Shown here: positions 3,301 to 6,783 of the stretch, piece by piece
Layout: every line of letters begins with the position of its first letter
Position numbering within the stretch: the stretch's first letter is position 1
Source: the human T2T-CHM13v2.0 reference genome, Homo sapiens
Length of the DNA: 64,000 nt
NCBI GenBank assembly: GCA_009914755.4
Contig: CP068257.2
Span: 2,336,001 to 2,400,000, forward strand
Direction: 5' to 3'
The notes under the pieces: model-generated
Databases searched by the model: none
Seen by the model: the letters and a program-made list of their open reading frames with translations, nothing else
Told to the model about the DNA's origin: nothing
Translations under genes and position numbers: made by a program

Positions 3301-3460
3301 CTCGCAAAGGCGCACAGCGCCGGCGCAGGCGCAGAGAGGCCTACAGCGCTGGCGAAAGGCGCAGAGAGACCCATAGCGCCGGCGCAGGCGCAGAGAGGCC
3401 CACAGCGCCGGCGCAGGCGCAGAGAGGCCCACAGCGCCGGCGCAGGCGCAGAGAGGCAGA
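3300..3460. repeat. 29-bp CpG-rich subtelomeric tandem repeat, ~5-6 copies
   Basis: Repeated unit ggcgcaggcgcagagaggcccacagcgcc, exactly 29 bp, at 3333-3458. Confidence 0.85.
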
Positions 3461-6400
3461 AGGCCCATGAGGGGAAGGTGAGACACCTGGGGCAAAGAAG
3501 AAAAAAAAATGCGCCGCGAAGCGGTGTCTGGGTCATCCAGGGACGAAAGTTTTTTCCCATCAGCCCTTGCGCTGGGCCCCAGGGACCCTGGCATTCCTGG
3601 TTCACGCCCGGGGTGTGCCTCAGGCGACTAGGCGTACCCCAACTTGGACAGAAGGCCCATGAGTGGAAGTTGAAGTTTGTGGGAGGAGAGGTGAGGCACC
3701 AGGGGCAGAATAAAAAAAAAAAGAGGACCGTGTCTCAGAGAAGCGGGACCTGGGTCCCCCACGGATGAAAGTGCCTTCCTATCAGGCCCTATGCTGGGCC
3801 TGGTAGACCCTGGCGACCCTGGTTCGAGCCCAGGGTGAGCCTCGGGTCAGCTTGGGGTACCACAAAGCGAACAAAAGGCCCATGAGGGGAAGGTGAGGCA
3901 CCTGAGGCAGAGAAAAAAAAAACGCTCAGCCGAGAAGCAGTGCCTGGGCCCCCCACGGATGAAAGTGCCATCCCATCAGCCCCTTCGCTGGGCCCTGGGG
4001 ACCCTGGCATCCCTGGTTTGACCCTGGGGTACGCCTCGGGACAGTAGGGGTACACCAAGGTGGGCAGAAAGCCCCTAAGGGGAAGGTGAGGCACCTGGGG
4101 CAGAGAAAAAAAAGAAAAACTTCGCCGCGGAGAAGCACGGCCTGGGTACCCCACAGACGAAAGTGTCTTCCCATCAGTCCCTGCACTGGGACCCAGGGAC
4201 CCTGGTGTCCCTCGTTCGAGCTCAGGGTGTGCCTCGGCCGCCAAGTGCACCCCAAGGGGGACTTTGGGGACACAAAGCCCGTGAGGGGAAGGTGAGTTTT
4301 GAGGAAGGAGAGGTGAGGCACCTGTCACAGAAAAAGAAAAAAAAAAACCCCGCCGCGGAGAGGTGTGGCCTGGGTACCCCACGGATGAAAGTGCCTTCCC
4401 ATCAGCCCCTGCACTGGGCCCCGTGGAACCTAGAGTCCCTGGTTCGAGCTCAGGGAGAGCCTCGGGCCACTAGGGATACCCCAAGGCGGTGGAAAGCCCA
4501 TGAGAGGAAGGTGAGCTGTGAGGGAGGAGAGGTGAGACACTTGTGGCAGAAAAGAAAAAGAAACCGCGCCACGGAGAAGTGGGGCCTGGGTCTCCCATGG
4601 AAAGAAAATGCCTTCCCATCAGTCCCTGAGCTGGGCCCCGTGGGCCCAGGCGACCCTGGTTCTAGGCCTGAGTGCACCTCGGGGCCACTAGGTGTACCCC
4701 AAAGCGGGCAGAAGGCCCATGAGGGGAAGGTGAGGTTTGAGGGAAGAGAGGTGAGGCACCTGCGGCAGAAAAAAAAAAAACATGCGGAAGAGAAGCGGGG
4801 GCTGGGTCTCCCACGGACGAAAGTGCCTTCTCATCAGCCCCTGCGCTGGGCCCCCTGGACTCTGGCAACCCTAGTTCAAGGACCAGAAGAGACTCCGGCA
4901 TGCTAGGGTACCCTAAGGAAGCCAGAAAGCCCATGAGGGGAAGGCGAGATTTAAGGGAGGAGAGGTAAGTCACCTGTGGCAGAAAAAAAAAAAAAAAAAT
5001 ATATATATATATATTATATATATATATATATATATATATTATATATATATATATATATATATATTATATATATATATATATATATATATATATATCGGCA
5101 CCTCGGAGAAGCCGGGCCTGGGACCCACTGATGAAAGTGCCTTCCCATCAGCCCCTGCGCTAGCCCCGAGAACCTGGCGACCCTGATTGGAGACCCAGGA
5201 GCGCCTCGGGCCTGCACGTGGTACCCCAAATCAGGCAGAAGGCCAGTGAGGGGAAGGTGAGGTACCTGGGGTGGAGAAAAAAAAACACAGCTTTGAGAAG
5301 CGGGGGCTGGGTACCCACGGATGAAGGTAACTTCCCATCAGACCCTGCGCTAGGCCCCGGCGACCCTGGCATCCATAGTTCGAGTCCAGGGAGCGCCTTG
5401 GGCCGCTAGGGGTACCCCAAGTTGAGCAGAAAGACCATGATGGGAAGTTGACGTTTGAGGGAGGAGAGGTGAGGAACCTGTGGCAGAAAAAAAAAGAAAA
5501 CAAGCCGCGCCGAGGAGAAGCTGGGCCTGGGTCCCCCAAGGATGAAAATGCCTTCCCATCAGTCCCTGCGCTGGGCCCTGTGGACCCTGGAGACCCCGGT
5601 TCGAGCCCCTGGTGCGCCTCGGGCCCGCTAGGGGTACCACAAGGCGGGCAGAAATCCCATGAGGGGCAGTTGAGGTTTGAGGAAGGAGAGGTGAGGCACC
5701 TGTGACAGAAAAAAAAAACTGCACCACGAAGAAGCGGAGCCTGGGTCCCCAACGGATGAAAGTGTCTTCCCATCAGCCCTTGCGCTGGGCCCAGGGGACC
5801 CTGGCATTCCTGGTTCGAGACCAGGGTGAGCTTCAGGCCGCTAGGGGTACCCAAAAGCGGGCAGAAGGCCCATGAGGGGAAGGTGACACACCTGGGGCAG
5901 AGAGAAAAAAAAACAACAACCGTGCCGCGGATAAGCGGGGCCTGGGTCCCCCACAGAAGAAACTGTCTTCCCATCAGCACTTGCACTGCGCCCCGGGGAC
6001 ACTGGTATCCCTGGCTCGAGCCCAGCATGCTCCTCGGCCTGCTAGGGGTACCCCAAGACAGACAGAAGGCCCATGAGGGAAAGGTGAGACACCTGGGGCA
6101 GAGAAGAAAATAAAAAACTGCGCCGCCCAGAAGTGGGGCCTGGGTCCCCCATGGACGAACGTCCCTACCCATAAGCCATGCACTGGGCCCCGGATACCCT
6201 AGTATCCCTGGCTCAAAACAAGGGTGCGCCACGGGCCGGCTAGGGGTACATCAAGGCGGGCAGAAAGCCCATGACGGGAAAGAGAGGCACCTGGGGAAAA
6301 GAAAAAAAAAAAAAAAAAACGCCACAGAGAAGCAGAGCCTTGGTCCCCGAGGAAGAACGTGTCTCCCATCAGCCACTGTGCTTGGCCCAGGAGAACCTGG

Positions 6401-6783
6401 CTTCCATGGTTCGAGCCTAGGGTGTGCCTCGGGCCGCTAGGGGTACCCCAAAGCGTGCAGAAGGCACAACAGGGGAAGGAGAGGCACATGGGGCAGAGAA
6501 AAAAATCCCTGCCGCGGAGAAGCGGGGACTGCGTCCTAAACACGGACGAAAGTGTCTTCCCATCAGGCCTTGCGCTGGGCTTCAGGGACCCTGGAGTCTC
6601 TGATTCGAGCCCACAGCGCACCTCGGACCGCTAGGTGTACCCCAAGGCAGACAGAAGACCCATGAGGGGAAGGTGAGATTTGAGAAAGGAGAGGTGAGGC
6701 AACTATAGCAGGAAAAAAAAAAACCGCGCAACGGAGAAGCAGGGCATGAATCCCCCACAGACGAAAGTGCCTTCCCATCAGGC
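3459..6783. repeat. GC-rich tandem array of ~16 units of ~195-220 bp. Each unit carries an internal A-run and several CpGs.
   Basis: The landmark cccatgaggggaaggtgagg recurs at 3465, 3657, 3878, 4075, 4278, 4497, 4717, 4930, ~5240, 5437, 5650, 5867, 6070, 6268, 6465 and 6659. Each unit also contains cagagaaaaaaaa..gccgcggagaagcggggcctgggtcccccacggatgaaagtgccttcccatcagcccctgcgctgggcc...ggttcgagcccagggtg.gcctcgggccgctaggggtaccccaag. Confidence 0.85.
4982..5096. repeat. Poly(A) plus (TA)n/(TATATATATT)n microsatellite interrupting the ~205-bp array
   Basis: A17 at 4982-4999, then ~97 bp of TA dinucleotide repeat with periodic TT. Confidence 0.95.

What the first reader, a model, noticed from the sequence alone, without database searches (positions are those of the whole stretch)
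3459..6783. Unclassified ~205-bp GC-rich tandem array (16 units) between the TAR1 repeats and the macrosatellite
Units of ~195-220 bp each contain an A8-A17 run, a CpG cluster (gccgcggagaagcggggcc...cccacggatgaaagtgcc) and a conserved cccatgaggggaaggtgagg motif. Divergence between neighbours is ~10-15%, much higher than between macrosatellite units, so this array is older. Its length and GC content recall gamma-satellite (~220 bp), but I cannot confirm that from memory. It starts immediately after the last 29-bp repeat and ends exactly at the macrosatellite junction, so three different tandem systems are concatenated here. One unit has been replaced by a ~100-bp (TA)n tract with a poly(A) stretch.
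Basis: seen in the sequence. Interest (0 to 1): 0.5.

Follow-up and report, generated by a model that had tools for sequence, protein, structure and literature searches.

The report
Old gamma-satellite (GSATII-type) array
The ~206-bp GC-rich repeat block is real, but it is a worn-down member of the known human gamma-satellite II family, sitting in a fossil chromosome end on an acrocentric-type short arm, so it is ordinary.

Summary
The array is real. It spans window 3464-6786 and holds 15 full units plus a truncated 16th. Units are 191-223 bp (median 206), about 59% G+C, each with an A-run.

It is not unclassified. Its consensus aligns over the whole unit with the 'GSATIIv' consensus in Hoyt et al. 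Table S2: 75% identity over two units, 78-80% over the core, E=5e-54. Period, G+C, 3.3-kb size and strongly diverged monomers all fit published descriptions of gamma satellite.

Two details were wrong:
- Neighbouring units are about 25% diverged, not 10-15%.
- The (TA)n tract is a microsatellite expanded at the A-run of an otherwise intact unit 8. It does not replace a unit.

The neighbouring macrosatellite is the T2T 'ACRO' composite (96.6-99.5% to its subunit consensi), and a CER-like 48-bp satellite follows. The setting is therefore a human-type acrocentric short arm.

Thirteen related contigs show the same frozen array at 95-97% identity, unit for unit. In other copies the array runs past the point where it is cut here.

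Best reading: a neutral, CpG-decayed relic satellite carried passively in segmental duplications. A chromatin-barrier role is possible but untested. Low interest.

The parts
3464..6786 (+). GSATII-type gamma-satellite array: 15 full units plus a truncated 16th. Median unit 206 bp, G+C 0.59, CpG observed/expected 0.47.
   Evidence: Anchor spacing. TRF. MAFFT alignment of units. 8-mer periodicity 473 vs 3.9 in shuffles. Homology to GSATIIv consensus, E=5e-54. Composition.
3464..3655 (+). unit 1, short form, 192 bp
3656..3878 (+). unit 2, long form, 223 bp. Carries the 21-bp internal duplication GTTTGAGGGAGGAGAGGTGAG.
3879..4071 (+). unit 3, short form, 193 bp
4072..4277 (+). unit 4, short form, 206 bp. 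Has a 9-bp insertion near its 3' end.
4278..4496 (+). unit 5, long form, 219 bp
4497..4715 (+). unit 6, long form, 219 bp
4716..4929 (+). unit 7, long form, 214 bp. The most diverged unit, 78% identical to the consensus.
4930..5242 (+). unit 8, long form. Complete unit of 214 bp plus the (TA)n expansion.
4999..5095 (.). (TA)n microsatellite, about 48 repeats with interruptions, grown at the 3' end of the A17 run of unit 8. It is only about 8-12 repeats long in related copies L055, L056 and L041.
   Evidence: TRF. Comparison with related loci.
5243..5433 (+). unit 9, short form, 191 bp
5434..5655 (+). unit 10, long form, 222 bp
5656..5868 (+). unit 11, long form, 213 bp
5869..6069 (+). unit 12, short form, 201 bp
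6070..6267 (+). unit 13, short form, 198 bp
6268..6464 (+). unit 14, short form, 197 bp, with an A18 run
6465..6658 (+). unit 15, short form, 194 bp
6659..6786 (+). unit 16, long form, truncated after CCCATCAGGCCCT. In L059, L057 and L115 the homologous unit continues to full length.
3455..3463 (+). Left junction: the last 29-bp TAR1-type repeat passes into the 3' end of a satellite unit (GCAGAGAGGC|AGAAGGCCCATGAGG). There is short microhomology between AGAGGC and AGAAGGC.
6784..6790 (+). Right junction with the ACRO composite macrosatellite. Homology to the later macrosatellite units begins at 6787.
2354..2659 (+). Context: degenerate interstitial telomere-like (CCCTAA)n/(CCCTGA)n tract.
   Evidence: TRF. 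Sequence.
2660..3457 (+). Context: TAR1-type subtelomeric sequence, including 37-bp-type repeats (3079-3300) and 29-bp repeats (3308-3457).
   Evidence: TRF.
6787..13068 (+). Context: first unit of the ACRO composite macrosatellite (T2T 'ACRO_Comp'). Further units start at 13069, 19531, 26252 and about 32946.
   Evidence: Subunit consensi ACRO_37, ACRO_38, ACRO_1624 and ACRO_1625 match at 86-99.5%. Units are 95.4-99.7% identical to each other.

Best explanation
The block is a small, old array of gamma satellite of the GSATII type. Gamma satellite is a known primate family of G+C-rich repeats with units of about 200-220 bp.

SHOWN
- The unit is homologous to a published GSATII-variant consensus.
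- The array has the family's period, composition, size and high monomer divergence.
- It has no higher-order periodicity and no gradient of similarity with distance.
- Its CpG sites are heavily decayed to TpG/CpA.
- Other copies of the same block are collinear with it, unit for unit, at 95-97%, while units within a copy are only about 75% alike.

INFERRED
- The array was built long ago by unequal exchange or replication slippage, from two unit variants: a short one and a long one carrying a 21-bp internal duplication.
- It then stopped being homogenised.
- It was methylated in the germ line.
- Since then it has been copied passively as part of a segmental duplication that includes a fossil chromosome end (telomere-like tract plus TAR1).
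- In this copy a later rearrangement cut the array inside unit 16 and joined it to the ACRO composite array of an acrocentric-type short arm.
- An A-run in unit 8 gave rise to a (TA)n microsatellite that expanded here.

The array most likely does nothing sequence-specific at this site. It is GC-rich heterochromatic filler.
For: - Whole-unit homology to the GSATIIv consensus from Hoyt et al. Table S2: 75% over 322 bp and 78-80% over 123-149 bp, E=5e-54. Individual units match at E down to 1e-19.
- Published descriptions fit. [quoted passage not shown] GSATII is listed in Repbase as 216 bp, with 12p11 arrays of period ~200 and 188 bp (PMC2588610). Its subfamilies are ~60% alike, have 'vastly diverged' 220-bp monomers and usually form 2-10 kb clusters (PMC8125562). 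GSATII is listed among the repeats of the regions flanking rDNA on acrocentric chromosomes (PMC8997349).
- Mean identity is 75% for adjacent units and 74% for non-adjacent units, flat from lag 1 to lag 7.
- At consensus CpG columns, 93 cells keep CG and 62 are CA or TG. CpG observed/expected is 0.47.
- L055, L091, L056, L096 and L041 are collinear with the window at 95-97%, whereas off-register alignments reach only 74-79%.
- L059, L057 and L115 continue the unit that is truncated here.
- The macrosatellite is the ACRO composite.
- There are no tRNA or Rfam hits. The longest ORFs have no Pfam hit. The consensus has no unusual RNA fold, z=-0.40. No CTCF motif reaches 10 bits.
Against: - The reference was a variant consensus, cut at 399 nt in the stored table. 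It was not the Repbase/Dfam GSATII model, which none of the tools holds. Whether RepeatMasker labels this stretch GSATII was therefore not checked directly.
- Identity to GSATIIv is only 75-80% at consensus level and about 70% for real units. This is a distinct sub-branch: it has an A-run where GSATIIv has GGAAGGAAAACACAAAC, and CTTCCCATCAG where GSATIIv has CCTCCCCACCG.
- One 11-bp block, CTTCCCATCAG, is 97% conserved across units that are otherwise about 25% diverged. That could hint at constraint, although the block contains no CpG.
- Chromosome-8 gamma satellite has experimentally shown barrier activity (PMC3771377), so 'no function' is an assumption.
Confidence: 0.82

Rival explanations
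1. The array works as a chromatin barrier, as reported for chromosome-8 gamma satellite. A zinc-finger protein of the Ikaros type would bind the TGGGAA core present once per unit. This would keep the TAR1 CpG-rich, TERRA-promoter-like segment and the ACRO composite array in separate chromatin states.
For: - Nine-unit (1.9 kb) gamma-satellite fragments from chromosome 8 protect a transgene from silencing. That paper states the effect depends on Ikaros binding (PMC3771377).
- The best-conserved block of the unit, CTTCCCATCAG (97%), reads CTGATGGGAAG on the other strand. TGGGAA occurs 12 times in the array.
- The array lies exactly between two different repeat systems.
Against: - The tested insulator was GSAT from chromosome 8. 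Gamma subfamilies are only ~60% alike.
- GSATIIv lacks the TGGGAA block at the homologous position.
- No CTCF-type motif reaches 10 bits in the array. The consensus scores 6.7 bits.
- Strong CpG decay indicates long-term germ-line methylation.
- The conserved block has no CpG, so a lower mutation rate alone could explain its conservation.
- The motif count against a shuffle means little for a repeated unit.
Confidence: 0.1
2. The units are an internal repeat of TAR1 itself, so the whole stretch 2660-6786 is one subtelomeric element.
For: - The array starts immediately after the 29-bp TAR1-type repeats.
- TAR1-type sequence also adjoins the array in a second, inverted configuration in L054.
Against: - The unit consensus has no match anywhere else in the window, including 2660-3457, at E<1e-4.
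This is a lead only.
- In L059, L015 and L084 the same array meets a different satellite, an erinome-like 18-mer.
- The unit is homologous to GSATIIv.
- The part of the Repbase TAR1 consensus that is not represented in the window could not be tested.
Confidence: 0.04
3. The unit descends from a tRNA-derived retroposon with a B box and a poly(A) tail. The element was duplicated in tandem, and the B boxes could recruit TFIIIC.
For: - The consensus contains GGTTCGAGCCC, which fits the B-box consensus GGTTCGANNCC. It sits inside a hairpin, CCCTGG-TTCGAGC-CCAGGG.
- Every unit ends in an A-run if phased that way.
- The pattern occurs 3 times in the window against 0.27 expected.
Against: - Only 3 of 15 units keep the B box.
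- ARAGORN finds no tRNA. Rfam finds no tRNA or SINE-type RNA even at E up to 10.
- There is no A box at the expected distance (read from the sequence).
- The consensus folds no better than shuffles, z=-0.40.
- GSATIIv has an interrupted A-rich stretch rather than a poly(A) at that position.
Confidence: 0.03
4. It is a new, unclassified satellite family.
For: - Identity to the only reference consensus available is moderate, 75-80%.
- The A-run and the CTTCCCATCAG block are specific to this branch.
Against: - Homology runs along the whole unit with E=5e-54.
- This is well above the ~60% identity that separates the accepted gamma subfamilies from each other.
- All descriptive features of gamma satellite are met.
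Confidence: 0.02

Closest known systems
[quoted passage not shown]
   Same: - Tandem head-to-tail units of about 190-220 bp, G+C-rich, with strongly diverged monomers.
- Homologous along the whole unit. Shared blocks include CCCCCACGG-CGAAAGTGCC, GGGGACCCTGG, CCCTGGTTCG, GCGCCTCGG, CCCAAGGCGG, CAGGAAGGC and GAGGCACCTG.
- An A-rich stretch lies at the same position.
   Different: - Identity is 75-80% at consensus level.
- This branch has a pure A8-A18 run and about 10 extra bases (GAGAAGCGGGGCCTGGGT against GAGGTCC).
- It has CTTCCCATCAG where GSATIIv has CCTCCCCACCG.
- Half the units carry a 21-bp internal duplication.
- The large GSATII arrays described so far are pericentromeric on 12p11. 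This one lies next to TAR1 in an acrocentric-type short arm.
GSAT (chromosome 8) and GSATX gamma satellites
   Same: Same satellite superfamily by published classification: about 220 bp, G+C-rich, in small clusters of 2-10 kb.
   Different: - Subfamilies are reported as only ~60% alike, and no sequence was available here to compare.
- The barrier/Ikaros experiments were done on GSAT from chromosome 8, not on this type.
TAR1 (telomere-associated repeat 1)
   Same: Immediate neighbour. Both are G+C- and CpG-rich tandem sequences of subtelomeric duplicons, and they travel together in related loci.
   Different: No sequence similarity between the unit and the TAR1-type sequence in the window. TAR1 repeats here are 29 and about 37-50 bp long, not about 206 bp.
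ACRO composite repeat (ACRO_Comp, ~6 kb, containing ACRO1)
   Same: Immediate neighbour on the other side. Both belong to acrocentric short-arm repeat landscapes.
   Different: It is an unrelated sequence with a 6.3-6.7 kb unit. Its units are 95-99.7% alike, so it is young or homogenised, in contrast with the frozen satellite.

Membership tests
Gamma satellite, GSATII branch | Sequence homology of the unit to a family consensus | tested here: met
   The consensus aligns to GSATIIv (Hoyt et al. Table S2) at 75% over 322 bp and 78-80% over the 123-149-bp core, E=5e-54. Thirteen of the 16 units hit individually at E of 1e-7 to 1e-19. The canonical Repbase/Dfam GSATII model was not available.
Gamma satellite, GSATII branch | Head-to-tail tandem units of about 200-220 bp (GSATII: 216 bp in Repbase; arrays of period ~200 and 188 bp) | tested here: met
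   Units are 191-223 bp, median 206. TRF periods are 194-228. The family definition comes from PMC2588610 and PMC8125562.
Gamma satellite, GSATII branch | G+C-rich composition | tested here: met
   G+C is 0.59 for the array without the (TA)n tract and 0.68 for the consensus.
Gamma satellite, GSATII branch | Highly diverged monomers in small clusters (2-10 kb) without a regular higher-order repeat | tested here: met
   Mean pairwise identity is 74-75% with no dependence on lag. The array is 3.3 kb. The long/short unit order S L S S L L L L S L L S S S S L is not periodic.
Gamma satellite, GSATII branch | Pericentromeric location | not testable with these tools
   No human genome search is available. 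The context (ACRO composite and a CER-like 48-bp satellite) points to an acrocentric short arm. GSATII is reported in the regions flanking rDNA there (PMC8997349).
Gamma satellite, GSATII branch | RepeatMasker/Dfam annotation as GSATII | not testable with these tools
   No Dfam or Repbase library is available in the tool set.
Gamma-satellite chromatin barrier (function shown for chromosome-8 GSAT) | Protein binding (Ikaros) and anti-silencing activity | not testable with these tools
   Only motif presence could be checked. A TGGGAA core sits in the most conserved block in 12 of 16 units. No CTCF motif reaches 10 bits. The function was reported in PMC3771377.
TAR1 | Sequence similarity to TAR1 | tested here: not met
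   The unit consensus has no hit to window 2660-3457 at E<1e-4. The full TAR1 consensus was not available.
tRNA-derived SINE / tDNA | tRNA-like sequence and structure with A and B boxes | tested here: not met
   ARAGORN finds no genes. Rfam finds no tRNA match at E up to 10. The B-box pattern is intact in 3 of 15 units. The fold z-score is -0.40.
ACRO composite (context: the 'macrosatellite') | Contains the published ACRO subunits in tandem units of about 6 kb | tested here: met
   ACRO_37 matches at 98.5-99.0% five times. ACRO_1625 matches at 99.5% four times and ACRO_1624 at 96.6% four times. ACRO_38 matches at 86-90%. Units are 6282-6721 bp long. It is described as a 6-kb composite enriched on acrocentrics.

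The most novel reading that the evidence does not exclude
This A-run-bearing, TAR1-associated sub-branch of GSATII would be a functional boundary element of acrocentric short arms. Its invariant CTGATGGGAAG block, present once per ~206 bp, would be kept by selection as a binding site for an Ikaros-type zinc-finger protein. That would separate a TERRA-promoter-like TAR1 island at a fossil telomere from the nucleolus-associated ACRO array.
Probability: 0.07. Interest if true: 0.4.

Novelty: already known. Interest (0 to 1): 0.1.

Why it matters
It matters little beyond correct annotation. The stretch should be labelled gamma satellite (GSATII type), not treated as a new family.

The locus is a tidy example of how acrocentric short arms are assembled from pieces. 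Those pieces are a fossil chromosome end (telomere-like tract plus TAR1), an old frozen satellite, and a young homogenised 6-kb composite array joined at a secondary breakpoint.

The one open point is the near-invariant 11-bp block inside units that are otherwise about 25% diverged. Whether it reflects protein binding could be checked cheaply in existing T2T-mapped data.

Tried and rejected
1. tRNA or SINE origin. ARAGORN and Rfam at E up to 10 found nothing relevant; the Rfam hits were only (TA)n artefacts. The B-box pattern is intact in 3 of 15 units. The consensus RNA fold has z=-0.40. Rejected.

2. Coding potential. Many mechanical ORFs appear, as expected for GC-rich DNA. The three longest have no Pfam family. 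Rejected.

3. CTCF sites. The best single unit scored 9.6 bits and the consensus 6.7. It also found none in the TAR1 part, so there was no positive control. This is weak negative evidence.

4. Higher-order repeat or local homogenisation. Identity does not vary with lag. Rejected.

5. TAR1 internal repeat. No similarity was found. Rejected as far as it could be tested.

6. Literature searches for a description of GSATII next to TAR1 on acrocentric arms found none. Kim et al. 2009 (PMC2665773) is not held.

7. Searching the Hoyt supplements for exact 10-11-mers of the unit gave no match. The homology was found only by reading the consensus table.

8. The metagenome scan returned mostly chance matches in bacterial contigs. 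Only 13 of 120 loci are true relatives. Two of those are chimeric: L115 has a flank that looks bacterial, and L057 ends in a sequencing adapter.

9. No canonical GSATIIv-type array was among the fetched loci to bridge the two branches.
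Full report
WHAT IS THERE

The window begins with a truncated L1 carrying an Alu (1-2350). Next come a degenerate telomere-like (CCCTAA)n/(CCCTGA)n tract (2354-2659) and TAR1-type subtelomeric sequence (2660-3457), which ends in five 29-bp repeats.

The finding starts at 3464. The motif CCCATGAGGGGAAGGTGAG (up to 4 mismatches) occurs 16 times at spacings of 191-223 bp, with one spacing of 313 bp. It occurs nowhere else in the 64 kb on either strand. 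TRF reports periods of 194-228 bp. Repeated 8-mers lie 185-230 bp apart 473 times, against 3.9 in shuffles, with harmonics near 400 and 620 bp.

A MAFFT alignment shows 15 complete units and a 128-bp truncated 16th. There are two forms. The short form (about 191-206 bp) covers units 1, 3, 4, 9 and 12-15. The long form (about 213-223 bp) covers units 2, 5-8, 10, 11 and 16, and carries a 21-bp internal duplication, GTTTGAGGGAGGAGAGGTGAG. Long units resemble each other most (75-82%), as do short units (71-79%), and the two forms are interspersed without a regular order.

Each unit has an A-run, with a longest run of 5-18 and mostly 8-12. A CpG cluster follows the A-run. G+C is 0.59.

CORRECTIONS TO THE OBSERVATION

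Adjacent units are 70-82% identical, mean 75%, so divergence is about 25% rather than 10-15%.

Identity does not fall with distance along the array (lags 1-7 give 71-75%). There is therefore no higher-order repeat and no local homogenisation.

The (TA)n tract at 4999-5095 does not replace a unit. Unit 8 is complete, and the tract sits at the 3' end of its A17 run. In related copies the same site holds only about 8-12 TA repeats. It is a microsatellite that arose at the A-run and expanded in this copy.

WHAT IT IS

No tool here holds Dfam or Repbase. However, Table S2 of Hoyt et al. (bioRxiv 10.1101/2021.07.12.451456) prints consensus sequences of repeat models built on T2T-CHM13. [quoted passage not shown]

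The consensus of our units aligns to it along the whole unit: 75% over 322 bp (two units), 78-80% over the 123-149-bp core, E=5e-54. Thirteen individual units also hit it, at E of 1e-7 to 1e-19.

Published descriptions of gamma satellite match what is measured here:
[quoted passage not shown] GSATII is listed in Repbase as 216 bp, with 12p11 arrays of period ~200 and 188 bp (PMC2588610).
- Its subfamilies GSAT, GSATX and GSATII are about 60% alike, have 'vastly diverged' 220-bp monomers and usually form 2-10 kb clusters (PMC8125562).

The array is therefore a member of the GSATII branch of gamma satellite, though a distinct sub-branch. It has a pure A-run where GSATIIv has GGAAGGAAAACACAAAC. 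It has about 10 extra bases after the CpG cluster. It has CTTCCCATCAG where GSATIIv has CCTCCCCACCG.

SURROUNDINGS

The 'macrosatellite' to the right is the T2T ACRO composite. Four published subunit consensi match it:
- ACRO_37: 98.5-99.0%, five copies.
- ACRO_1625: 99.5%, four copies.
- ACRO_1624: 96.6%, four copies.
- ACRO_38: 86-90%.

Units are 6282-6721 bp long and 95.4-99.7% identical to each other. ACRO is described as a 6-kb composite arrayed on the five human acrocentrics and strongly enriched on ape acrocentrics.

A 48-bp satellite at 52340-59992 and 63062-63973 fits the CER satellite in unit length. CER is reported distal to rDNA on all acrocentrics (PMC3847771). GSATII is listed among repeats of the rDNA-flanking regions (PMC8997349).

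The locus is thus human-type acrocentric short-arm sequence. The exact chromosome cannot be named with these tools.

JUNCTIONS

On the left, the last 29-bp repeat passes into the 3' end of a satellite unit at 3455-3463, with a few bases of microhomology.

On the right, homology to the later ACRO units begins at 6787. In those later units the preceding sequence is the end of the previous ACRO unit, whereas here it is satellite unit 16, cut after CCCATCAGGCCCT.

RELATED COPIES

One scan of metagenome contigs with a pattern shared by our units and GSATIIv returned 120 loci. Thirteen carry this same satellite and are presumably host DNA in the samples.
- L055, L091, L056, L096 and L041 are collinear with the window at 95-97%. 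In L055 the match runs from the L1 through the telomere-like tract, TAR1 and the whole array into the ACRO composite. Out-of-register alignments within the array reach only 74-79%. The units had therefore already diverged before the block was duplicated, and they have not been homogenised since.
- L059, L057 and L115 are about 90% identical. In them the unit homologous to unit 16 continues to full length, and L059 has about three more units. The junction with ACRO in the window is therefore a secondary breakpoint.
- In L059, L015 and L084 the array ends just before an A-run and meets a degenerate 18-bp satellite. That satellite resembles 'erinome' in Hoyt Table S2, for which arrays are listed on chr13p and chr14p.
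- In L054, TAR1-type repeats adjoin the array in inverted orientation.
- L115 and L057 are partly chimeric contigs.

HOW IT MOST LIKELY WORKS

At consensus CpG columns, 93 cells keep CG and 62 are CA or TG. CpG observed/expected is 0.47, against 0.95 in the adjacent 29-bp repeats. This is the signature of long-term germ-line methylation.

Together with the flat 75% identity and the unit-for-unit collinearity of paralogous copies, the best reading is a relic. Unequal exchange built the array long ago. It then froze and was methylated. Since then it has been moved passively inside segmental duplications of acrocentric-type short arms.

No sequence-specific activity is indicated:
- No tRNA or Rfam family.
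- No Pfam hit in the longest ORFs.
- No unusual RNA fold.
- No CTCF-type motif of 10 bits or more.

WHAT REMAINS OPEN

One block, CTTCCCATCAG, is 97% conserved. On the other strand it contains TGGGAA, the core reported for Ikaros-type factors; this is my own knowledge, not a tool result. It occurs in 12 of 16 units. Chromosome-8 gamma satellite protects transgenes from silencing, reportedly through Ikaros (PMC3771377). A barrier role is therefore conceivable.

However, the tested satellite belongs to a different subfamily, the block contains no CpG and so mutates more slowly anyway, and GSATIIv lacks it. I give this about 0.1.

A tRNA-retroposon origin was suggested by a B-box-like GGTTCGAGCCC and the A-run. 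It is not supported.

VERDICT

The interpretation 'unclassified' is wrong, and the gamma-satellite hunch is right. This is a known kind of satellite in a known kind of place, and interest is low.

Noticed in passing
window 1-2659: A degenerate telomere-like tract, (CCCTGA)n grading into (CCCTAA)n at 2354-2659, is joined directly to a truncated L1 (1-2350) that carries an Alu at 1441-1610. Together with TAR1 to its right it looks like a fossil p-arm chromosome end now lying internally. Related locus L096 departs from the window to the left of position 1916.
   Followed up: partly
window 4999-5095; L055 ~3420-3445, L056 ~1610-1630, L041: The (TA)n tract at the A-run of unit 8 has about 48 repeats here but only about 8-12 in three related copies. 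It is a length-variable microsatellite. The related copies are short-read assemblies, which may under-represent it.
   Followed up: yes
L059 1-4714, L015 578-4848, L084 866-3182: In these related copies the satellite array ends just before an A-run and is followed by kilobases of a degenerate 18-bp repeat, ACCTGGGGCCTGATGTCC. This resembles the 'erinome' satellite of Hoyt et al., whose listed arrays include chr13p and chr14p.
   Followed up: partly
L054 2471-3450: TAR1-type 37-bp-class repeats and one 29-bp unit are joined to the same satellite in inverted orientation. This is a second TAR1-satellite configuration. It could be real or an assembly chimera.
   Followed up: no
L115 1-3252; L057 1204-1671: These metagenome contigs are chimeric. 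The L115 flank has 39% G+C and reads like a bacterial gene with a signal peptide. L057 ends in the Nextera adapter CTGTCTCTTATACAC.
   Followed up: partly
window 6787-36000: There are five ACRO composite units of unequal length (6282, 6462, 6721 and 6694 bp, then a partial or rearranged fifth). Their internal 147-bp ACRO1 sub-array varies from 10.6 to 13.5 copies. Units 3 and 4 are 99.7% identical, while the others are 95-96%. The fifth unit starts differently: homology begins about 8 bp later and after a different preceding sequence.
   Followed up: partly
window 52340-59992 and 63062-63973: Large arrays of a 48-bp satellite, 160 and 19 copies at 77-83% matches, fit the CER satellite that is reported distal to rDNA on acrocentric chromosomes. 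About 3 kb of other sequence interrupts them.
   Followed up: no
window 3599-3625 and the same position in each unit: There is a hairpin CCCTGG-TTCGAGC-CCAGGG whose loop region fits the Pol III B-box consensus GGTTCGANNCC. The match is perfect in the consensus but intact in only 3 of 15 units. GSATIIv shares the feature as CCCTGGTTCGCGCCCACGG.
   Followed up: yes
window 36553-37439, 44749-44992, 50808-51127: Several small local tandem repeats lie between the ACRO array and the 48-bp satellite: 39, 58/115 and 26 bp; 62 bp x 3.9 at 96%; and 157 bp x 2. They were not examined.
   Followed up: no
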